64,000 bases of DNA from a virus (IMGVR_UViG_3300037454_000906:96001-160000), one strand, 5' to 3'. Shown: positions 4,768-54,759, numbered from the stretch's first letter. Notes: generated by a model from the sequence alone, not told the origin. A program made the numbers and translations.

Positions 4768-5232
4768 TCATTTTGCCTTGCTGAGGAGCGAATTGTACAA
4801 GTTCATCAGTGATCGCAGATGTTCGACTTCCATGGGCAGGAAAGGAAGCCTCAGATTAACGTTTTCGTATTCAATGGGTTGGATATCGACATACCGGAAC
4901 GTGTAAGTAACCCCAGTGGGATGACTGAAAGAACCCAAATGTTCATTGCACCACCTGGAAATCAGCTCATCACATACCGGCCCAAGCGATTTTCCTATGT
5001 TGAAATATGACAGGTGCTCCCTATTGCTGCAATGGAAGAACAGTAGAATATTCCATCCCGGTGCAACTTCGGCGGCTGCTGCGGCAGTCTCGTACGCATC
5101 CGGCTCCACGCCTATAAGGCGGGCAAGGGAGTACGCGTCATCGGAACGCCTCTCGTTTTTGAACTTCGCGATGACCTTCATGATGAACTTCGTTACAATC
5201 ATGGTGCAGATGGAAAGTTTCAGGTACTTCAT
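4768..5232 (-). CDS. hypothetical protein
   Basis: 154-aa ORF. Confidence 0.65.
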   Translation of the reverse strand: MKYLKLSICTMIVTKFIMKVIAKFKNERRSDDAYSLARLIGVEPDAYETAAAAAEVAPGWNILLFFHCSNREHLSYFNIGKSLGPVCDELISRWCNEHLGSFSHPTGVTYTFRYVDIQPIEYENVNLRLPFLPMEVEHLRSLMNLYNSLLSKAK

Positions 5233-28457: not shown

Positions 28458-28895
28458 ATGAAACCTTTAAAAACAGAAGACACCATATCCGCGGACAAGC
28501 TGAGGGAAGCAATCGACCTCCTTTGCCCAGAAAAGAAACAGGAACTTATCGACGCATCGTACGACATACGAGGCAGCAGTTTGCTAACCGATACCGAACG
28601 TGATGCAGAGGAATACACCCTGTGCGTGATGGCCCTGTTCGAACGAATCATCAAGGCCGTCCCCATGGATGCCGACAACATGTGCCAGTATATCAGGAAC
28701 ATGGAACCCAAGAAGGAAGAGGACGAGAATAACCTACCACCACCCTGGCAGGCCAACGAAACGGTCGATCCGTTGCTCATGGCGCAAATCCAGCTCGAAA
28801 CCGCTTATAGATTCGAGAATCCGAAGGAACAGGCGGAAGCCGTCAAGAACCTGGTAGTTGCCGTACAGGAGAAGAGAAATGCTGAAGCTCACTAA
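28458..28895 (+). CDS. hypothetical protein
   Basis: Leaderless start; overlapping divergent -10 boxes at 28429-28451. Confidence 0.65.
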   Translation: MKPLKTEDTISADKLREAIDLLCPEKKQELIDASYDIRGSSLLTDTERDAEEYTLCVMALFERIIKAVPMDADNMCQYIRNMEPKKEEDENNLPPPWQANETVDPLLMAQIQLETAYRFENPKEQAEAVKNLVVAVQEKRNAEAH

Positions 28896-29286
28896 GCTAA
28901 TCGACGTATACGAAAAACATGAAAATGGTTATTACATCATGACCTGGGCGTATGGCCTGCTTGCGCTAAGTGGGCCAATAATTTGCTACATATATGACGG
29001 GATTGGTATACTGTTCGTGCTCGCGGCGTGCAATTTTATCAACCTATTCCAGATGCTGGTCCGGATAGACCCGGACAATTTCGATTTCGACCGGCGTGAG
29101 GCTCGGATATTCAGGTACCGGGTGTTCAGAGTTGCATTGGTGTTCACTCCGGTACTATTCCCGTACTGGATATGCCTGGGGCTCGCCATCCCCCTCGACA
29201 TGCTGCTGACCGGGACCGGACGCGCCTACCTGTACATACGCGACAAGATTGTGAATCCGGACGAGGAAGCTGCCTTGAAGAAATAA
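28879..29286 (+). CDS. membrane protein
   Basis: About four hydrophobic segments. Confidence 0.65.
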   Translation: MLKLTKLIDVYEKHENGYYIMTWAYGLLALSGPIICYIYDGIGILFVLAACNFINLFQMLVRIDPDNFDFDRREARIFRYRVFRVALVFTPVLFPYWICLGLAIPLDMLLTGTGRAYLYIRDKIVNPDEEAALKK

Positions 29287-29396
29287 TGTACTCGCTTGCC
29301 GCACTCCCCATCTATGGCTTTACGTTGCCGCCCATTTATTTATTTGCTACATTTCCAGCACGAAGATGACAGAACAGGGACGGGACAACAATCCAT

Positions 29397-29678
29397 ATGG
29401 AGGACTTTATGGTTAAAGCGATCAGATTCATGTACAGCGTCGTAGTTCTCACCACCGCCTTCCTCGTACTCATGACAATCGGGTGCATGCTGGTCGGCAT
29501 ACTAAAACACTTCGGCGTGGACGATGCAATCACGTACACCTGGTATGGTGGCATACTGGGGTTTGGGGGTGGTGAAATTCCCACGCTGCATGACCGGTTC
29601 CGGAAGCAGATCGATGCCCCGCTGAACTGGATACTTGGCAAAATCAGGAAGGAGTTGGCTGCCGAGATTAAGCAGTGA
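29397..29678 (+). CDS. membrane protein
   Basis: TM helix; promoter at 29324-29353. Confidence 0.6.
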   Translation: MEDFMVKAIRFMYSVVVLTTAFLVLMTIGCMLVGILKHFGVDDAITYTWYGGILGFGGGEIPTLHDRFRKQIDAPLNWILGKIRKELAAEIKQ

Positions 29679-29688
29679 CGCTCGATGG

Positions 29689-29717
29689 TTGCCACCCAGC
29701 AATCAATTTGCTATATA
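29689..29717 (+). promoter_or_regulatory. early promoter upstream of a non-coding tRNA-like region
   Basis: TTGCCA-N17-TATATA. Confidence 0.75.
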
Positions 29718-29812
29718 TTAAACGTGAAGGCACGCCGGCCAGGAAGGCAAACCCGCCGCACCGCCATGCTCAGTGCACAGAGAGGCACCAGGTTCGCGAA
29801 CTGGAAAAGTGT

Positions 29813-29875
29813 GTGTTGCTGCCGGAGTGGCCAATAGGCTCAGTCTTCACAACTCGCCCCGGAGAGGGCAACGCC
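29813..29875 (+). ncRNA. highly degenerate tRNA-like cloverleaf, possible anticodon TCA
   Basis: GTGTTGC/GCAACGC stem, D-arm-like GCCGGAGTGG..GGC, loop CTTCACA, truncated T arm. Confidence 0.25.
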
Positions 29876-48372: not shown

Positions 48373-48672
48373 ATGGCAACCGAATCCGAACTCCGTGTCC
48401 TTTCAAGGTTGCAGACCTACTTCAACCAGCCCAACCACTTGCATACAGTCACCCAGCACTCGCGTTGTGTCCAAATCCAGAATTGGGACTGCGACATCTA
48501 CGGAGACCTATATTTGATAACACTGAATGGTCGTCTGTCATCATTGGCAAAGCTGCTCAACAATAATGGATTTTCCATAAGCTATCAAGCAAACGATATG
48601 TGCGGTGGGAAATGCTGGCACGTCTGGAAACCAACCTTTAACGAGAAACCGGCATTCCTATATTCCCCATAG
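48373..48672 (+). CDS. hypothetical protein
   Basis: GGAGG RBS. Confidence 0.65.
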   Translation: MATESELRVLSRLQTYFNQPNHLHTVTQHSRCVQIQNWDCDIYGDLYLITLNGRLSSLAKLLNNNGFSISYQANDMCGGKCWHVWKPTFNEKPAFLYSP

Positions 48673-48673
48673 G

Positions 48674-49291
48674 TCAGTCTTCGTTGGAAGTCTCATCTTC
48701 TTCCGGCTCATCCTCTTCGGGTTCAGGTTCTGCCTCGTACCAGTGGACTCCGATGTTCTCTTCGTTGTATTCGAGGAACGGCCACCCGAAACTGTCCTCG
48801 CAGTTGAACTCGTCTCCGTCCGGACCGTAGTCGGGTGAGTACACGAACTTGGAATACGTGTCCTTATGTTCCACCTCTGTGTCGTTGATGATGGTAGTGT
48901 AGGTATATTCAAAACTCGTGAGCAGTTCCGGACAATTCTTCTCGACCCATTCGCGAGGAGCCGATACCAGATAGTTCTGGCTCATATCGATGTAGCCACA
49001 GCGGACACAGAGCTTGTTTTCCTTCACCCATTCCTCGTTGCGAAACGTCTGGTTGAGGTCGTTTCCTAGCCACTTGCGGAAGTTCTCGGTCGGAGGATAG
49101 TCTTGGCCGTACATCCAGTTGTTCACCGAGAAATAGATGATACCGCTGTCCATACGGTTAAAGTCTTGAAGCACGGCGTCCGGCAACCAGTCGGAATCGA
49201 ACAAGTGTTCGGAGCCGAATAACTTGTCAAGCTCGTATAGCACGTTCTGCGGGGTGTAGAGCCTGGAAAGCAGCTCCATCGAGAACTTCGT
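48674..49291 (-). CDS. C-terminal part (205 aa) of the gene interrupted by IS607
   Basis: In frame with 53698-53808 across the TCGGAC junction. Confidence 0.75.
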   Translation of the reverse strand, partial: TKFSMELLSRLYTPQNVLYELDKLFGSEHLFDSDWLPDAVLQDFNRMDSGIIYFSVNNWMYGQDYPPTENFRKWLGNDLNQTFRNEEWVKENKLCVRCGYIDMSQNYLVSAPREWVEKNCPELLTSFEYTYTTIINDTEVEHKDTYSKFVYSPDYGPDGDEFNCEDSFGWPFLEYNEENIGVHWYEAEPEPEEDEPEEDETSNED

Positions 49292-49500
49292 CCGATAAAT
49301 CATTTCTACACATTTCTACCAATTAAATATGTATTGGTGATTTCTTGCTTCATCGCCATGCACTGCTCTTGTGTTTCAAAGAACTGCAACCTCATGTCTT
49401 TGGGGCTGGTGTAAACCATACCTTCCCGATAGGTGACACATTGTATGTCGCCGTGGGGGCAAGCATTCGCAACGGAATTGTCGCTTACGGTGTATCTCAC
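49292..49500 (-). ncRNA. predicted omegaRNA scaffold of the IS607 TnpB
   Basis: Lies in the low-complexity tnpB C-terminal extension; GCAG...GATGAAGCAAGAA motif; limits approximate. Confidence 0.5.
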
Positions 49501-50697
49501 CGCATTGTCATTAGTCGGGACTACTAGGTTTAGTAGCCACAGGCCATAGAACTGCAAGTTCCTGGCTGCATTGTAATCTCTGTCATGGTGATGCCCACAT
49601 ACCGGGCATACCCATTCCCTGTCATCCAGGGCCAAATCCTTGTTGTAGTATTGCCCGCAATGCGAACAGTAACGGCTAGAAGCGTAGAACTGCGGAGCGA
49701 AGAACAGCAGTATGCCTAGCCAAGCACACTTGTATTCCAGGAACTGCCGCATCCTACCGAAGTTGGCATCGAGGATAGCGGAGGCCAGCTTGTGATTTTT
49801 GGACATATTCTTCGGCTTCAAGTCTTCAAGAACAATAGCTTTTGGCTTCGTATGCTTTGCGAGGTCAGCCGTAAGCTGGTGAGCCGCATTGACTCGGATA
49901 TTGGTTATCCTTCTGTGGATTCTAGCCAGCAACTTGCGGCACCGTTCACGGTTCTTGGAGTGTTTCTTCTTGCGTGATAATGCTCGCTGGAATCTGCGGA
50001 GTCTAGCCTTTGCGTGTCGGTAGGCTTTCGGGTTGGTGTAAACGATACCGTCGCTAGTGATTGCTAAGTCCTTCACACCGAAATCGACGCCTACGATGTC
50101 CTGCTCATCGAATGAGGAGATAGATTCGTGGAATGGAACGATGTCAGCCACATAGGCGAAGGAAACATACCACTTCCCAGCAGCATCGACCGATACTGTC
50201 GCCATTGCAAGCGGTATCTTCTCGGAATCCTTCGGAATCTTGATGTAGTCCTTCTCACGGAGCTTAATTCTGCCGAGGGTAGGTATCTGTACGAAATCAC
50301 GACCGATGAACACCCCACCGGAGCAGCGGAACGAGTTGTCCTGGTTATATCGGTGGAAGCGTGGGTGCTTGGCTAGACCCTTGAAGAACCGCTTCCATGC
50401 GGAGCCGAGGTCGATGAGGGCTTCCTGGCCGCAGAACTTGGAGACTTCCGTCATCCACTTGTTATCAGGGAGCTTCTTGTAGATGCACCATTCCTTGTGC
50501 CAGTCCCTCGGCGTTCCGAGGGTGCATTTGACCTTCTCGCCTTCCGGCGTGTTGACCTTGGCTTCCTCGTAAGCCTTGTTCTGCTCGGCCAGTTTCCAGT
50601 TGTAGGCACGGCGGGAAACGGCACACATACGGTACATCGTCCGTACCTGTGCCTTGCTCGGTTTCAAGCATATCTTCCTTCCGCACTGCTGTTCCAT
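49306..50697 (-). CDS. tnpB: TnpB (IS607-type) with N-terminal HTH
   Basis: GVDFGVK, IVLEDL, CSHCG/CPVCG, DRDYNAARN. Confidence 0.92.
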   Translation of the reverse strand: MEQQCGRKICLKPSKAQVRTMYRMCAVSRRAYNWKLAEQNKAYEEAKVNTPEGEKVKCTLGTPRDWHKEWCIYKKLPDNKWMTEVSKFCGQEALIDLGSAWKRFFKGLAKHPRFHRYNQDNSFRCSGGVFIGRDFVQIPTLGRIKLREKDYIKIPKDSEKIPLAMATVSVDAAGKWYVSFAYVADIVPFHESISSFDEQDIVGVDFGVKDLAITSDGIVYTNPKAYRHAKARLRRFQRALSRKKKHSKNRERCRKLLARIHRRITNIRVNAAHQLTADLAKHTKPKAIVLEDLKPKNMSKNHKLASAILDANFGRMRQFLEYKCAWLGILLFFAPQFYASSRYCSHCGQYYNKDLALDDREWVCPVCGHHHDRDYNAARNLQFYGLWLLNLVVPTNDNAVRYTVSDNSVANACPHGDIQCVTYREGMVYTSPKDMRLQFFETQEQCMAMKQEITNTYLIGRNV

Positions 50698-50707
50698 AAC
50701 TTAGCCC

Positions 50708-52780
50708 TTATGCTGCATCAGCGTAAGCCCACTTATAACCACCGGCAGTTTTATTACGCCCAGTTAATACTTCATGTATAGAAGATGTATGGATACCTAC
50801 GGCATCCGCAGCGGCTTTAATAGAATCGTAAATTTGGACGACATGATTATTTTTAGATATCTGTTTAATAGCGCGTTTTGTATTTTTGGGCTTATAATTC
50901 ATACCAGGAAATACAATATCGCTTATCGGGGTTGTGCTGTATGCCCATACATATCCGCCCGCCATGTGGTGTTCGCCCATCAAAACTTTTCGAATTGATG
51001 TTACTGATACTTTGCATTCACGCGAGGCTTCATTAACTGACCCAAATTGGTTAATACGGTCACCATCTAAGTTGTATTGAATCACAGGCCGTTTAGAAGA
51101 TGGTGGGATATATTGGCTCCCTGGAAATTTAATATCAGATATATCGGTCGTACTATATGCCCAGACATAACCACCTGCCGTCATTGCATCCCCTCTAAGA
51201 ACTGAACCAATGTTAGATTGTGCTATTCCAACCGCCTTGGCGGCATCCTTTATTGAATTATATTGGCGAATAAGTGTTCCATCATAATTATACTGGGAAA
51301 CTGGTTTTCTCGGTCGAGATTTCGAACGATAATCATAACCAGGAAATACGATGGTTGCTTTAGGAACCGATTCATATACCCACACATAGTTTTTTAATGT
51401 TCTCTGACGGCCAGATAAGCATTCGCAAATGGCACTTGTTTGTACATCGACTGCCCTAGCAGCCGCTGCAATAGAGACATGAGTCGCAACAAATTTACCA
51501 TCCAAAGTATATTGGCATACTCGCTTGGGTGCCGATAAGTTGTCAGAAAACCATTCATCAATCCAGCCTCGCTTACTACAATGGTCTGCCAGTGTTTTAT
51601 AGGCATCCCTAAATTCGCGTCGTGTATTGAATTGCATTGCATAATGGTAAGCATCGTCCTTAGACATATTAGACCACATACCATTGTTCGATTTCTTTAA
51701 TTTCAACCAAGGAAACTTTCCGCGAAGATGCTTATGACAAATAGAGCTATATAATCCTGGATACGCTTTTGCAAAGTCGTTCCAATACTTGAACGGCTTA
51801 GCCACTTTCAGTAATTTTGGCATTGTCCATTTACCAAAGCCAATGCTACCCATACTTCCGCCTCTTGCCTTATTTAGCAGAGTCCACCCTAAACTTCGAT
51901 ATAAAGCAATCATCTTGCATTCCATTTCCCCATGCTTATCGCCCTTTGTCTTTATTGCAAATGTGGCAAGAATGCGAGGCTCCGGTATCGAGACGCCAAT
52001 AGATTTAGCATATTGAACAATAGAATCGTTATCGTTATGACAATGGTCGTAATGGCGGCGTTTTAGGTCGATAGTTCTACCAATGTATGCTACATTCGTC
52101 ATCGGAAATTCATATACATATACGGTATCATATAGTAAACCATTCTTATAGCCATTAGATTGTTCCAAGAATGCTATTTTTTCGTGCCAATGATTTTTAG
52201 ATACAACAGAATACATACCCGGATATTTTTCGCGGAAATACTTGAGGGTAGGGCATTGCTTCGCCGTATTAACTATCACTTCTTCCGTATATATCCGTCT
52301 GCGTTCGATTTCTTGCCGACGAGTTGTGAGTGCATCTTGTAGTCCAAGTTTGTCTAGCCATTTTTCTCTAACAGCAATTCTATACATCTGGGGTTCAGCT
52401 TGCTTAAAATCTATTCGTTTACAGCAGCCAGCTGCTAATAATTTATCCACAACAGCTTTACATTTTTCAAAAGTAATTGCAGTTTTTCTCCAATGATATT
52501 CAGGTATCCATTTATCAAGCCATCCAGACCGCATAGCTTTATAATATGCAGCATGGTCCATTTTGAAGAACTCGGTTCTAGTTTTGCATTGTTTGGCAAT
52601 GTTATGACAGGTGTCATAATCCAAGGTTTTGAATACAGTATGGGGTATGAGAGTTTCAATCCATCCCATTTTGCATGCCTTGCGATATGCTTGCCTATCC
52701 AATCGCTTAAACTCATAGCGAGTGTTACACTTGCTTGCCGATGCAAGACAGGTTTCATAATCTAACTTTCTATTAGTCAT
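50708..52780 (-). CDS. GIY-YIG endonuclease with six helical repeats and four NUMOD1 repeats
   Basis: VYVY...AYIGRT..LKRRH..H, E, LLN; repeats K.V.QY..DG...F.SI..AA...W.Y; AT-rich. Confidence 0.85.
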   Translation of the reverse strand: MTNRKLDYETCLASASKCNTRYEFKRLDRQAYRKACKMGWIETLIPHTVFKTLDYDTCHNIAKQCKTRTEFFKMDHAAYYKAMRSGWLDKWIPEYHWRKTAITFEKCKAVVDKLLAAGCCKRIDFKQAEPQMYRIAVREKWLDKLGLQDALTTRRQEIERRRIYTEEVIVNTAKQCPTLKYFREKYPGMYSVVSKNHWHEKIAFLEQSNGYKNGLLYDTVYVYEFPMTNVAYIGRTIDLKRRHYDHCHNDNDSIVQYAKSIGVSIPEPRILATFAIKTKGDKHGEMECKMIALYRSLGWTLLNKARGGSMGSIGFGKWTMPKLLKVAKPFKYWNDFAKAYPGLYSSICHKHLRGKFPWLKLKKSNNGMWSNMSKDDAYHYAMQFNTRREFRDAYKTLADHCSKRGWIDEWFSDNLSAPKRVCQYTLDGKFVATHVSIAAAARAVDVQTSAICECLSGRQRTLKNYVWVYESVPKATIVFPGYDYRSKSRPRKPVSQYNYDGTLIRQYNSIKDAAKAVGIAQSNIGSVLRGDAMTAGGYVWAYSTTDISDIKFPGSQYIPPSSKRPVIQYNLDGDRINQFGSVNEASRECKVSVTSIRKVLMGEHHMAGGYVWAYSTTPISDIVFPGMNYKPKNTKRAIKQISKNNHVVQIYDSIKAAADAVGIHTSSIHEVLTGRNKTAGGYKWAYADAA

Positions 52781-53429
52781 TAGTAACCTCGCTTATTGTT
52801 TTAGCTTCTTTTCGTTTCTTGCGGTTCTCCTTACCGCGTCTGCTGTATAGTTTCGCCGAGAAGACGGCAAGGAGTGACAGCATGTCCTTCACCAGGTCTG
52901 CCTCGAACGACTCGCTCAAGACGGACTCGGTATATTCCACATCGACCCCGTGGGAGCGGAAGTATTCGACCAATAGATTGTAGTTGAACCTGGTCAGTCG
53001 GTCGTAGTGCTCGATAACCACCTTGTCGAACTTGTGCTCGGCAGCGAGACGCATCATTCGGAGCAGCTTCTTGCGGTTGTCGTTCAGACCCGAACCCACT
53101 TCCTCGAAGATTTCCACCACCGAATACTTCTTGCTGACGCAGTATTCCATCAGGCGGAGCTTCTGACGGTCAAGGTCTCCGTGGGACTTTTGGTCGGAGG
53201 TCGATACTCGGCAGTAGATGACCACACGGGTTCCGGCCTTGTTTTCAACCTCCGGTTCATCCACCTTCTCGCCCAGGTAGCGGCGAAGGTCGTCCTCGTC
53301 CCAGCGTCTATTCCCGCTCTTGCCGGAGCGGTAGACCTTGAACTTGCCTTCTTCCGTCCATCTGCGAAGAGTGTTCGGGCAGCAGCCGAGAATATCGCAG
53401 GCAGCCTTAGTTCTTACTTTCTTCCCCAT
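52773..53429 (-). CDS. tnpA: IS607 serine recombinase TnpA
   Basis: MerR-like HTH NTLRRW, IYCRVST..Q..DL.RQ, EVGSGLN..R, DRL.RF, FSAKLYSRR. Confidence 0.93.
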   Translation of the reverse strand: MGKKVRTKAACDILGCCPNTLRRWTEEGKFKVYRSGKSGNRRWDEDDLRRYLGEKVDEPEVENKAGTRVVIYCRVSTSDQKSHGDLDRQKLRLMEYCVSKKYSVVEIFEEVGSGLNDNRKKLLRMMRLAAEHKFDKVVIEHYDRLTRFNYNLLVEYFRSHGVDVEYTESVLSESFEADLVKDMLSLLAVFSAKLYSRRGKENRKKRKEAKTISEVTND

Positions 53430-53589
53430 CTTCCACCTCGATACCCATATATTCGGCTGCGTTGTCGAGATACTTCTGGAACTCTTCCAAGGTCGGAAGA
53501 GGGTCAATGTCCAGCATCATCGGCTGGATGGTGCCGTCTTCCAGCTCAAACTCGTCTTTAGTCAGTCGCACTACTTTCATACGCTTCAT
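53407..53589 (-). CDS. 60-aa acidic protein inside the IS607 left end
   Basis: AAGGA RBS; overlaps the tnpA start and contains its GAGGTG RBS. Confidence 0.65.
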   Translation of the reverse strand: MKRMKVVRLTKDEFELEDGTIQPMMLDIDPLPTLEEFQKYLDNAAEYMGIEVEDGEESKN

Positions 53590-53697
53590 TGTGGTTGTCC
53601 TTGATAAAGTTTATAGCGTGATGACTAAAATATAGTTAATTTTTGGTAGAAAAGGTTAGAAATTATGAAAAAATTTGTTTACAGTTGACTTCCCAGT

Positions 53698-53808
53698 CCG
53701 AGTGTCGCGGATGACGTTGCACCACGACTCCGTCGACTTGTCGAGCGCGATTTCGAGAATACCTTCCCACTTGTCGATAAGCGGTTTGAGCATTTCGGGT
53801 GTAATCAT
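53698..53808 (-). CDS. N-terminal part (37 aa) of the gene interrupted by IS607
   Basis: GGAGG RBS; MITPEMLK...IRDTR. Confidence 0.75.
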
Positions 53809-53988
53809 ATATACCTCCAATTTCATTATACGCAGTCCCAGAGATACTCTTCGATAATCCCTGCGGCATCCTACTAAATTACACGTTAATTTTAAAACAA
53901 TCGAGCGTGGTTGGATTTTAACCAACATCTGAGTCCAATAAGGACATTCCGCACTCTCCTACAGCATTTAACTGCATTAACACTTGTG

Positions 53989-54252
53989 CTACACGCCCAA
54001 TAGCTTCACCAAAACAATTAACCCAACAAATGCCGCAAATCCAATAGGTGTATATATTATCCCTACATGGCCCTGGCTATCGTAATCGGCTTTGGCATCG
54101 TCCATGGTATCAAAGGATTTGCCTTTACCGCAAGCATGATGCCATTTACCCTTACCGTCTTGCCAATACATCTCACGTGGACCTTCTCCTATATCGGGGC
54201 ATTCATTATTCTCCTTATACAGGTGATAATCTAGTAAATCAACCGTTTCCAT
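53989..54252 (-). CDS. hypothetical protein with C-terminal TM
   Basis: ORF. Confidence 0.6.
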   Translation of the reverse strand: METVDLLDYHLYKENNECPDIGEGPREMYWQDGKGKWHHACGKGKSFDTMDDAKADYDSQGHVGIIYTPIGFAAFVGLIVLVKLLGV

Positions 54253-54255
54253 ATC

Positions 54256-54759
54256 CTACAGTACCATGGATTCCGCTTCTTGAATCTTTACCGGATCGGC
54301 GTCACCGGCCTCTTTCATGCGATCCGCAATAAATTTCTGCATCCCTTCACGTGTTAGCCCCGTCAGGTGTTCCTCGTTGACCCAGCCGCACCACAGCTCA
54401 ACGTGCCTGTCGTGGTTTTCGTGAATGGTGACGTACGTGGTCGGCGGAAAATCGTGGTATGTGAACACTTCCATCGCCAGGCCGCGAATTTCTATGTCGG
54501 ATGAATCAGTGGGCGGGTTGCATGCAACATATTCGCTCTTCAGTACATACTGTTCTGTACGGGAGCCCACCTCGAGCATGTTCCGTATGCATATGACGAC
54601 ATATGGAAACTTTTCCGCGACGTGCTTGACCAAATTATACGCCTCGGCCTTGCTATCCTCAAGCGCTATATTTTTCCTGACCGAGGCCAGCCGTTTGGCC
54701 AGTTCCGCTTCCTCGGATACCAACAAATCTCGTCTCGACCTATCGTACTCTTGGACCAT
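54256..54759 (-). CDS. hypothetical protein
   Basis: ORF. Confidence 0.65.
   Translation of the reverse strand: MVQEYDRSRRDLLVSEEAELAKRLASVRKNIALEDSKAEAYNLVKHVAEKFPYVVICIRNMLEVGSRTEQYVLKSEYVACNPPTDSSDIEIRGLAMEVFTYHDFPPTTYVTIHENHDRHVELWCGWVNEEHLTGLTREGMQKFIADRMKEAGDADPVKIQEAESMVL

What the first reader, a model, noticed from the sequence alone, without database searches (positions are those of the whole stretch)
49292..53699. Four-gene IS607 carrying a large GIY-YIG/NUMOD1 endonuclease between tnpA and tnpB
Seen: within defined IS607 ends the order is a 60-aa ORF, serine tnpA, a 690-aa endonuclease and tnpB. The endonuclease has four helical repeats, an intact GIY-YIG, two more repeats and four NUMOD1 units. 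It overlaps the tnpA stop (ATGACTAA), ends 10 nt before tnpB, and is much more AT-rich than its neighbours. Known: IS607 is normally tnpA-tnpB only; TnpB drives RNA-guided homing; GIY-YIG/NUMOD1 proteins are protein-guided homing nucleases. Inference: a composite selfish element with two homing nucleases, or a free-standing homing gene that has parasitised the IS operon.
Basis: partly seen in the sequence, partly recalled or inferred. Interest (0 to 1): 0.8.

Follow-up and report, generated by a model that had tools for sequence, protein, structure and literature searches.

The report
Phage IS607 transposon with swappable homing-endonuclease slot
A 4.4-kb jumping gene in a giant phage carries, between its transposase and its RNA-guided nuclease, a second protein-guided DNA-cutting gene; related copies hold different cutting genes at exactly the same spot, a layout I did not find described in the papers I could search.

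Summary
Window 49292-53691 (minus strand, 4400 bp) is an IS607-family element. Its ends are fixed to the base by two related phages with the empty site. It sits at a TGGG target with GG cores and splits a phage gene.

It encodes four genes, all under purifying selection:
- a conserved 60-aa ORF;
- serine TnpA;
- a 690-aa GIY-YIG/NUMOD endonuclease (I-TevI catalytic fold, Z 10.1);
- an intact TnpB with an omega-RNA-like 3' region ending AUCGG.

This is not a one-off. All ten sampled contigs (78-466 kb) carrying the identical 60-aa ORF have a gene between tnpA and tnpB:
- The arms are 90-97% identical.
- The cassette differs: at least five GIY-YIG types only 27-48% alike, an HNH type, degenerate forms and one non-nuclease.
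- Every element with a readable end sits at its own insertion site.
- A cargo-less sister lineage and free-standing relatives of the 690-aa gene also exist.

Best reading: an active phage IS607 lineage whose tnpA-tnpB junction is a slot for interchangeable homing endonuclease genes. What the endonuclease cuts is inferred, not shown. I found no description of this architecture in the searchable literature. Other first-reader notes of this scan cover this same stretch.

The parts
49292..53691 (-). Whole IS607-family element, 4400 bp. The left end starts AAGTCAACTGTAAAC at 53691. The right end finishes ...GAAATGATTTATCGG at 49292.
   Evidence: Empty-site phages L027 and L028 align without a break to window 53817->53691 and 49293->48693. 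The cargo-less and other copies share the same end sequences.
53692..53695 (-). TGGG target motif (expected TAM) just outside the left end. Its last GG is the crossover core, and the right end also finishes in GG.
   Evidence: Left-end flanks are TGGG in 7 of 8 copies and CGGG in one. This matches the published TGGG target and TAM, and the omega-RNA scaffold end ...UCGG, of an IS607-family element (PMC10690162, read).
53590..53691 (-). Non-coding left end, 102 nt. It is too short to hold a group I intron.
   Evidence: Sequence read. Rfam at E<=1 found no intron anywhere in 48500-54500.
53407..53589 (-). orf60: a conserved small acidic accessory protein of unknown function. Its end overlaps the tnpA start.
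   Evidence: It is 100% identical in L012, 88% in the cargo-less L023 and 58% in a nested sister IS. dN/dS is 0-0.16. The exact sequence is indexed in 441 blocks of the collection. The model is beta-beta-beta-alpha with pLDDT 83. The best structural match reaches only Z 3.1.
52773..53429 (-). tnpA: IS607-type serine transposase with an N-terminal MerR-like HTH and a C-terminal resolvase catalytic domain.
   Evidence: Pfam HTH_17/MerR_1 at 32-78 and Resolvase at 95-235 of the 244-aa ORF scanned. phrog_6620 transposase. It is 97% identical in L012 and 98.6% in L056.
50698..52795 (-). Variable cassette slot between the conserved left arm and right arm. Here it holds the 690-aa endonuclease gene plus the conserved 10-nt spacer (50698-50707), which carries a Shine-Dalgarno-like AAGG before the tnpB ATG.
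   Evidence: In L187-L192 homology to the window stops at element positions 886-896 and resumes at 2951-2995. The spacer follows TAAGGnnTAGnnn-ATG in every cassette type, with A for G at one position in the window's own copy.
50708..52780 (-). 690-aa GIY-YIG/NUMOD homing endonuclease gene. Residues 1-205: four helical repeats. Residues 216-307: GIY-YIG domain (51860-52135). Residues 318-411: two more helical repeats. Residues 417-688: four NUMOD-type units (50717-51532).
   Evidence: Domain hits. Invariant residues. Model. Fold matches. dN/dS is 0.11 against L012 and 0.15 against the free-standing L013.
49306..50697 (-). tnpB: 463-aa RNA-guided nuclease with an intact RuvC D-E-D triad and CxxC...CxxC zinc finger. 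Residues about 400-463 are read through the omega-RNA region.
   Evidence: E 2.5e-50 to ISDra2 TnpB structures 8bf8/8exa. In the printed alignment, to a 408-aa designed TnpB (9yyg), the window protein has acidic residues opposite chain positions 191, 278 and 361. Pfam and PHROG hits.
49292..49472 (-). Omega-RNA-like scaffold that overlaps the tnpB 3' end and finishes ...AUCGG at the right end.
   Evidence: The last 180 nt or so are far more conserved than the upstream coding sequence across 8 copies. The consensus fold has 71 pairs, 11 of them with compensatory changes.
49272..49291 (-). Flank that would be transcribed as the guide (ACGAAGTTCTCGATGGAGCT...). It is identical to the intact target gene of the empty-site phages, directly after their TGGG.
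   Evidence: Eight copies have eight different flanks.
48674..49291 (-). C-terminal part of the phage gene split by the element. The right end supplies an in-frame ATG at 49303.
   Evidence: In L027 the gene is one ORF that reads ...RDTRTG-TKFSMELL....
53692..53808 (-). N-terminal part of the same split phage gene (MITPEML...RDTRTG). In the window it runs on into 10 IS-encoded codons.

Best explanation
This is an active IS607-family transposon of giant phages. Its tnpA-tnpB junction serves as a slot for interchangeable homing endonuclease genes.

**Shown by comparison**
- The element is bounded by GG cores and sits at a TGGG site inside a phage gene.
- Sister copies share arms that are 90-97% identical but hold different cassettes in the same place. 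The cassettes are several distant GIY-YIG/NUMOD types, an HNH type, decayed forms, one non-nuclease gene, or nothing in a sister lineage.
- Every copy with a readable end lies at its own insertion site.
- The window's 690-aa cassette has an intact, conserved GIY-YIG core and is under purifying selection.
- TnpB and its guide-RNA region look functional.

**Inferred**
1. Serine TnpA moves the whole composite as a double-stranded circle to new TGGG sites.
2. TnpB with its guide RNA cuts the TGGG-flanked empty allele in co-infecting sister phages or after excision. Repair then copies the element back.
3. The endonuclease gene is expressed from the same operon.
4. The endonuclease spreads by cutting IS607 copies whose slot lacks it. 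Repair from a cassette-bearing copy installs it there. The IS thus plays the part that a conserved host gene plays for ordinary phage homing genes.

This would explain repeated invasion, swapping and decay of cassettes at one fixed junction.
For: **Ends and target**
- Empty-site phages L027 and L028 fix the ends to the base.
- The TGGG target, GG cores and a right end finishing ...ATCGG match the experimentally studied IS607-family element of PMC10690162.

**Mobility of the composite**
- The composite with the 690-aa gene lies at three different sites: the window, L012 and L193.
- Elements of 3476-4410 bp with other cassettes lie at further sites.

**The slot**
- All 10 sampled contigs with the identical orf60 carry a gene between tnpA and tnpB.
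- Arm homology stops and restarts at the same points in each.
- Arms are 94-97% (left) and 90-93% (right) identical whatever the cassette. The window's arms are closest to L189, an HNH-bearing copy.
- Cassette types are only 27-48% identical to one another, or unrelated.

**Stages of a homing-gene life cycle**
- Intact cassettes of 690, 504, 478, 442, 414 and 378 aa.
- Shortened: 545 aa in L056.
- Truncated: L191.
- Interrupted by another IS: L019.
- Absent: L023.

**The endonuclease and its relatives**
- Free-standing relatives exist, with homology limited to the ORF.
- Fold and invariant residues are. dN/dS is 0.11.

**TnpB and guide**
- The TnpB catalytic triad is intact.
- The omega-RNA region is conserved with compensatory pairs.
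- The guide-template flank is identical to the empty allele.
Against: - No cleavage site is known for any of these endonucleases. Nothing here shows that the cassette cuts IS607 DNA rather than phage or host DNA.
- Cassette swapping could come from ordinary recombination between co-infecting phages, without nuclease help.
- All four intact cassette ORFs compared stop 10 nt before tnpB, separated from it by a conserved spacer. That could equally mean the slot is an adapted, stable part of the operon and that the endonuclease serves the IS or the phage.
- The free-standing L013 copy keeps 16 nt that resemble the tnpA tail and 9 nt of the spacer. The direction of transfer, into or out of the IS, is therefore unresolved.
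- Only 10 of the hundreds of contigs that carry orf60 were sampled.
- Expression was not tested.
Confidence: 0.6

Rival explanations
1. The endonuclease is cargo that pays its way for the phage. It cuts the genomes of competing related phages (marker exclusion or killing, as with the T4 Seg and Mob enzymes). Selection on the phage then keeps an otherwise costly IS, and different cassettes target different competitors.
For: - The family is otherwise free-standing in large phage genomes.
- All cassette-bearing copies sampled lie in large phage contigs, and none was found in bacterial species genomes.
- The cassette is under purifying selection.
- The IS here disrupts a phage gene, so some compensating benefit is plausible.
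- The review PMC13565253 describes this competitive role for free-standing homing genes.
Against: - It does not by itself explain why unrelated endonuclease types always land at one exact junction of the IS.
- It does not explain why decayed and interrupted cassettes persist there.
- No target is known.
Confidence: 0.22
2. The endonuclease is a working part of the transposon. For example, it could make a break that aids homing of the whole IS to a fixed site, or back up TnpB where the guide fails. The slot would then be an adapted module position.
For: - The 10-nt spacer with a ribosome-binding motif is conserved, and gene packing is tight and co-directional in every variant.
- A cassette is present in 10 of 10 sampled copies of this sub-lineage.
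Against: - Solo-tnpB and cargo-less relatives have the same right end at different sites, so they can move or once did.
- Unrelated nuclease folds, truncated forms and a non-nuclease gene occupy the slot. That is hard to square with one required function.
- The base composition is foreign.
Confidence: 0.12
3. The arrangement is an assembly chimera, or the cassette is dead passenger DNA.
For: - The window comes from a metagenome-derived virus record.
Against: - The same junctions occur in independent assemblies from different sources (L012 Logan, L056, L193 ENA, and others).
- The ORF is intact, its catalytic residues are invariant, and dN/dS is 0.11-0.15.
Confidence: 0.02

Closest known systems
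IS607-family elements (serine TnpA plus TnpB and omega RNA), such as IS607 of Helicobacter pylori and the IS607 module of CboIStron (PMC10690162)
   Same: - TnpA has the HTH before the resolvase domain.
- GG core at both ends, with no target duplication.
- TGGG target, which is also the expected TAM.
- tnpB lies downstream, and its guide-RNA scaffold overlaps the tnpB 3' end and finishes ...UCGG.
- The empty site is scarless.
   Different: - A third, variable gene (a homing endonuclease) sits between tnpA and tnpB.
- A conserved 60-aa ORF precedes tnpA.
- In the collections searched, the lineage was found only in large phage contigs.
Free-standing GIY-YIG homing endonucleases of phages (T4 SegA-G) and intron-encoded I-TevI / I-BmoI
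   Same: - GIY-YIG catalytic fold with conserved Tyr, Tyr, Gly, Arg, His, Glu and Asn.
- C-terminal NUMOD-type DNA-binding units.
- AT-rich relative to neighbours.
- Free-standing relatives occur between phage genes.
   Different: - Much larger, at 690 aa.
- Six extra helical repeats of about 42 aa flank the catalytic domain, and there are four NUMOD units.
- It is housed inside a transposon operon rather than between conserved phage genes or in an intron.
- Its target is unknown.
IStrons (group I intron fused to an IS605 or IS607 module)
   Same: - A nested selfish element that includes TnpB and its guide RNA.
- Found in phage genes.
- The element interrupts a coding sequence.
   Different: - No group I intron was detected, and there is no room for one (102-nt left end, genes packed).
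- The insertion therefore really splits the phage gene.
- The partner here is a protein homing endonuclease gene, not a ribozyme.
Replacement of one free-standing homing gene by another at the same locus in T4-related phages (segH and hef in place of mobC and mobE; recalled from Sandegren, Nord and Sjoberg 2005, not re-read here), and the invasion-decay-loss cycle of homing genes (Goddard and Burt 1999, from memory)
   Same: - Unrelated endonuclease families occupy one fixed position between conserved flanks.
- Intact, decayed and empty states coexist.
   Different: - The conserved flanks here are the two genes of a transposon.
- The 'locus' is therefore multi-copy and mobile, and moves between genomic sites.

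Membership tests
IS607 family (serine-transposase IS) | TnpA is a small serine recombinase with the HTH N-terminal to the catalytic domain | tested here: met
   Pfam HTH_17/MerR_1 at 32-78 and Resolvase at 95-235 of the 244-aa ORF scanned.
IS607 family (serine-transposase IS) | Scarless insertion at a GG core present at both ends, with no target-site duplication | tested here: met
   Empty sites in L027 and L028, against the window junctions ...TGGG|AAGTC... and ...ATCGG|ACGAAG.
IS607 family (serine-transposase IS) | Preference for a TGGG target that matches the TnpB TAM (PMC10690162) | tested here: met
   7 of 8 left-end flanks are TGGG and one is CGGG. The paper was read. TAM activity itself was not tested.
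IS607 family (serine-transposase IS) | Canonical two-gene tnpA-tnpB content | tested here: not met
   There are four genes. The cargo-less sister L023 has three: orf60, tnpA and tnpB.
TnpB (OMEGA RNA-guided nuclease) | RuvC D-E-D triad and zinc finger | tested here: met
   E 2.5e-50 to ISDra2 TnpB structures (8bf8/8exa). In the printed alignment, to a 408-aa designed TnpB (9yyg), the window protein has acidic residues opposite chain positions 191, 278 and 361. CSHCG...CPVCG is present.
TnpB (OMEGA RNA-guided nuclease) | Structured guide-RNA scaffold overlapping the gene's 3' end and ending at the transposon's right end | tested here: met
   Conserved terminal region of about 180 nt. 71 predicted pairs, 11 with compensatory changes. 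It ends AUCGG. No Rfam family matched, and RNA expression was not tested.
GIY-YIG homing endonucleases | GIY-YIG alpha/beta catalytic fold | tested here: met
   I-TevI catalytic domain 1ln0_B at Z 10.1, rmsd 2.4 A, 85 residues aligned. UvrC GIY-YIG domains at Z 5.0-5.2.
GIY-YIG homing endonucleases | Conserved motif residues (Tyr of GIY, Tyr-x-Gly of YIG, Arg, Glu, Asn) | tested here: met
   Y221, Y223, Y232, G234, R235, R242, H246, E287 and N303 are invariant in 20 homologues. Residue-by-residue superposition on I-TevI was not done.
GIY-YIG homing endonucleases | Pfam PF01541 score at or above the gathering threshold | tested here: not met
   20.0 bits against a cut-off of 22.6 for the window protein. 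The sister cassette in L190 reaches 23.6.
GIY-YIG homing endonucleases | Site-specific cleavage of an allele that lacks the gene, followed by homing | not testable with these tools
   Needs the enzyme and DNA substrates.
IStron | Group I intron ribozyme joined to the IS | tested here: not met
   Rfam at E<=1 over 48500-54500 gave only a tRNA-like hit outside the element. The left end is 102 nt and the genes are packed.
Arc-like ribbon-helix-helix accessory ORF of IS605/IS607/IStrons | Beta-alpha-alpha RHH fold | tested here: inconclusive
   The orf60 model is beta-beta-beta-alpha with pLDDT 83. There is no Pfam or PHROG hit. The best structural match is Z 3.1.

The most novel reading that the evidence does not exclude
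This IS607 lineage is a distinct kind of compound mobile element: a transposon backbone (orf60, tnpA, tnpB and guide RNA) with a dedicated cassette position. Protein-guided homing endonuclease genes of different folds invade that position, compete for it and replace one another. The transposon itself would then be the homing site, and three DNA-breaking or DNA-joining systems would cooperate or conflict within 3.5-4.4 kb. If the endonucleases do recognise the unoccupied junction, this would be homing into a mobile, multi-copy target. It would also be a natural system for studying conflict between RNA-guided and protein-guided drives.
Probability: 0.4. Interest if true: 0.85.

Novelty: new variant of a known kind. 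Interest (0 to 1): 0.76.

Why it matters
IS607/TnpB elements and homing endonuclease genes are the two textbook ways in which selfish DNA uses double-strand breaks to copy itself. They have been studied separately.

Here they are physically nested in a recurrent, apparently successful architecture in giant gut- or rumen-type phages.
- One backbone carries many different endonuclease cassettes.
- A natural allelic series exists: intact, shortened, interrupted and empty slots, plus free-standing copies and empty insertion sites.

This makes several questions directly testable:
- whether homing genes can use a transposon as their target;
- how protein-guided and RNA-guided drives interact;
- whether such cargo helps a transposon persist in a lytic phage.

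The element also offers compact, naturally paired nuclease modules, and a set of TnpB guides with known natural targets.

Tried and rejected
- **Phage records:** megablast of the region against GenBank phage records gave no match.
- **IMG/VR protein scans:**
  - The single endonuclease protein gave nothing.
  - Its family profile gave only distant free-standing relatives.
  - The JGI metagenome scan gave one free-standing copy and the composite L056.
- **Left-end 15-mer:** a scan of IMG/VR returned 120 loci, all chance matches with no TnpA, TnpB or endonuclease.
- **tnpB-start pattern:** this found only one further copy, a solo tnpB.
- **Bacterial and archaeal species genomes:**
  - The TnpA scan found no relative.
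  - The 13 right-end 18-mer hits were chance.
  - No bacterial copy was seen, which is not proof of absence.
- **Structure searches for the endonuclease:**
  - The family profile matched no PDB sequence at E<=1.
  - Foldseek with the whole 690-aa model gave only weak rows.
  - The domain matches became clear only after re-alignment.
- **orf60:** no family and no convincing fold match.
- **Promoters and terminators:** the scan gave counts no higher than shuffled sequence.
- **tRNA:** ARAGORN found no tRNA near the element or in related loci.
- **Split HNH cassette of L019:** I tried to rejoin it across the nested IS. I could not fix a joint that agrees with the GG cores and keeps the frame, so I left it as 'interrupted'.
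- **L012 flank:** it is absent from the window's own genome. Whether that copy sits in a related phage is unknown.
- **IStron reading:** rejected.

Full report
**What is there.** The window is bases 96001-160000 of a 253-kb, 99%-complete virus record, a giant phage. Four co-directional ORFs lie on the minus strand:
- a 60-aa ORF (53407-53589);
- tnpA (52773-53429; the ATG was read);
- a 690-aa ORF (50708-52780);
- tnpB (49306-50697).

Pfam gives TnpA a MerR-type HTH followed by a resolvase domain. It gives the 690-aa protein four I-HmuI/NUMOD-like units plus a sub-threshold GIY-YIG hit, and TnpB the three usual domains. PHROGs agrees. The tnpA stop overlaps the 690-aa start, and 10 nt separate its stop from tnpB. 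The 690-aa gene has 40% GC (33% at third positions). tnpA has 54% (72% at third positions) and tnpB 51%. The element is single-copy in this genome, which also holds at least six other tnpB-like ORFs.

**Exact ends and target.** Two IMG/VR phages, L027 and L028, carry the downstream gene at 90-91% identity.
- They align without a break to window 53817->53691 and 49293->48693. They are therefore empty sites.
- The element is 49292-53691, 4400 bp. It runs from AAGTCAACTGTAAAC... to ...GAAATGATTTATCGG.
- It is inserted at ...ACTGGG|ACGAAG..., with GG on both sides and no duplication.
- In L027 the site lies inside one ORF (...RDTRTG-TKFSMELL...), so the element splits a phage gene.
- Zedaveinyte et al. 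(PMC10690162) showed three things for an IS607-family element: a strict GG requirement, a TGGG target equal to the TnpB TAM, and a guide-RNA scaffold ending ...UCGG. All three features are seen here.
- Left-end flanks are TGGG in 7 of 8 copies.
- Rfam finds no group I intron, so this is not an IStron.

**The nucleases look functional.**
- TnpB matches ISDra2 TnpB structures at E 2.5e-50. In the printed alignment, to a 408-aa designed TnpB, the RuvC D-E-D positions and the zinc finger are conserved.
- The last 180 nt or so before the right end are much more conserved than the coding sequence upstream. They fold into a consensus structure with 11 compensatory pairs.
- The flank that would form the guide is identical to the empty allele, directly after its TGGG.
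- An AlphaFold model of the 690-aa protein has mean pLDDT 80. Residues 216-307 align to the I-TevI catalytic domain at Z 10.1 (rmsd 2.4 A, 85 residues). Residues 631-690 align to the I-HmuI DNA-binding domain at Z 8.5.
- Y221, Y223, Y232, G234, R235, R242, H246, E287 and N303 are invariant in 20 homologues with a mean column identity of 30%.
- Between the window and L012, dN/dS is 0 for orf60, 0.11 for tnpA, 0.11 for the endonuclease gene and 0.05 for tnpB.

**Relatives of the parts.**
- The 690-aa protein has a 94% relative in L012 with the same orf60-tnpA-X-tnpB order.
- Nucleotide identity to L012 is 92% from the contig start to exactly 49291. Beyond that point the flank differs.
- Relatives at 78% identity (L013-L015) and 53% identity (L016) are free-standing in phage contigs, without tnpA or tnpB. 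In L013-L015, homology to the window is confined to 52793-50702.
- TnpB relatives at 82% identity (L023-L025) belong to a cargo-less element of about 2.3 kb. It has orf60, tnpA and tnpB, and the tnpA stop overlaps the tnpB ATG.
- Other relatives are solo tnpB copies.

**The slot.**
- TnpB relatives at 95% identity (L019, L020) follow a window-like tnpA 3' end. Between the two they hold a different gene, with an HHIIP...EH..AH motif and PHROG hits to homing and HNH endonucleases.
- That gene is itself interrupted by a nested sister IS607 on the opposite strand.
- The exact orf60 sequence is indexed in 441 blocks of the collection. All ten places shown, in contigs of 78-466 kb, have a gene between tnpA and tnpB: 690, 504, 478, 442 (twice), 414 (twice), 378, 233 and 202+67 aa.
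- Homology to the window covers the left arm up to element positions 886-896, and the right arm from 2951-2995 to the end. Only L193 shares the 690-aa gene.
- The cassettes fall into these groups:
  - GIY-YIG/NUMOD relatives that are mutually 27-48% identical;
  - an HNH group (378 aa, the L019 gene, and a truncated L191 form);
  - one 233-aa protein with no nuclease hit.
- L056 has a 545-aa version with two NUMOD units, beside arms that are 96-99% identical at the protein level.
- Arm identities are 94-97% (left) and 90-93% (right) whatever the cassette. The window's arms are closest to the HNH-bearing L189.
- In every loaded copy compared, the cassette stop codon is followed by a conserved 10-nt spacer and then the tnpB ATG.
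- Every element with readable ends has its own flanks.

**Interpretation.**
- Distinct sites with exact GG-bounded ends argue that TnpA transposes the composite as a unit.
- The guide, the TAM and the empty alleles make TnpB homing into sister phages plausible.
- The cassette pattern is what homing genes produce at a favoured locus. It shows one fixed junction, conserved flanks, deeply divergent or unrelated occupants, and decayed and empty states. Here that locus is a transposon.
- I therefore favour endonuclease homing into unoccupied IS607 junctions (confidence about 0.6).
- The rivals are a phage-competition role for the cargo (about 0.22) and a function within transposition (about 0.12). 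An artefact or dead cargo is effectively excluded.
- The direction of the original transfer is open. L013 keeps 16 nt resembling the tnpA tail and part of the spacer, which could mean escape from the IS.

**Novelty.** Full-text searches combining IS607 or TnpB with GIY-YIG, homing endonuclease, passenger gene or jumbo phage found nothing describing this architecture.
- Two papers treat the two systems side by side but not nested: a 2026 review of homing endonucleases and OMEGA systems, and the IStron paper.
- A 2026 survey of gut jumbo phages counts stand-alone homing genes but does not mention IS607 or TnpB.
- I could not consult ISfinder.
- No copy was found in bacterial species genomes.
- I class it as a new variant of a known kind.
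- Other first-reader notes of this scan cover the same stretch and the split gene. The IStron cases noted on other genomes are a different arrangement.

Noticed in passing
window 48674-49303 and 53692-53808 (minus strand): The element splits a phage gene of about 245 aa that is intact in L027 and L028. The right end (ATGATTTATCGG) supplies an ATG in frame with the downstream part. In L012 and L023 the same ATG runs into a stop, so this looks like chance at this site.
   Followed up: partly
window 53902-53998 (minus strand): Rfam tRNA hit (33.9 bits against a gathering score of 29; 97 nt for a 71-position model) just upstream of the split gene. ARAGORN does not call it. It could be a tRNA with an insert, or a tRNA-like remnant.
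   Followed up: no
L019 608-3241 (also L020): Three-level nesting. A sister IS607 (64-aa ORF, tnpA, 579-aa TnpB-like protein, no cassette) is inserted on the opposite strand. It sits at a TGGG site inside the HNH cassette of another IS607, which itself lies in a phage.
   Followed up: partly
L179 10903-11577: A different 224-aa HNH endonuclease gene (EDHHIVPRSLGG...REHF) lies 220 nt upstream of a 95%-identical tnpB that has no tnpA of its own, next to the sister IS607 on the opposite strand.
   Followed up: no
L192 6310-7011: One cassette is a 233-aa protein with no nuclease signature and only a weak SUKH-1/SMI1 hit (E 0.007). The slot is therefore not restricted to endonucleases.
   Followed up: no
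L186 7798-7849: This copy has the left arm, a 504-aa GIY-YIG cassette and the spacer. It then ends at the tnpB start codon, so tnpB and the right end are missing.
   Followed up: no
L013 about 2770-2800 and 4871-4882: The free-standing 78% relative keeps TAAACAAGAACACTAG upstream, which resembles the tnpA tail of L012, and TAAGGACTA downstream, which resembles the spacer before tnpB. It may therefore have left an IS607 rather than being its source.
   Followed up: partly
Cassette borders in L019 and L187-L191: Most cassettes are flanked on both sides by a short direct repeat (ATAAGGAA, a stop codon plus a ribosome-binding motif). It may be purely translational, or a recombination point for cassette exchange.
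   Followed up: no
Own genome G000:C1 around 18572, 28603-29853, 109029 (window about 13029), 128582 (window about 32582), 182526 and 185015: At least six further tnpB-like ORFs of 410-439 aa lie in the same phage genome, but there is no second serine tnpA and no second copy of the 690-aa gene.
   Followed up: no
window 53407-53589: orf60 is more conserved than tnpA (88% against 74% protein identity to the cargo-less lineage) and is very abundant in metagenomes. Its predicted small beta-beta-beta-alpha fold has no match, and it does not look like the Arc-type repressors described for IS605 elements and IStrons.
   Followed up: partly
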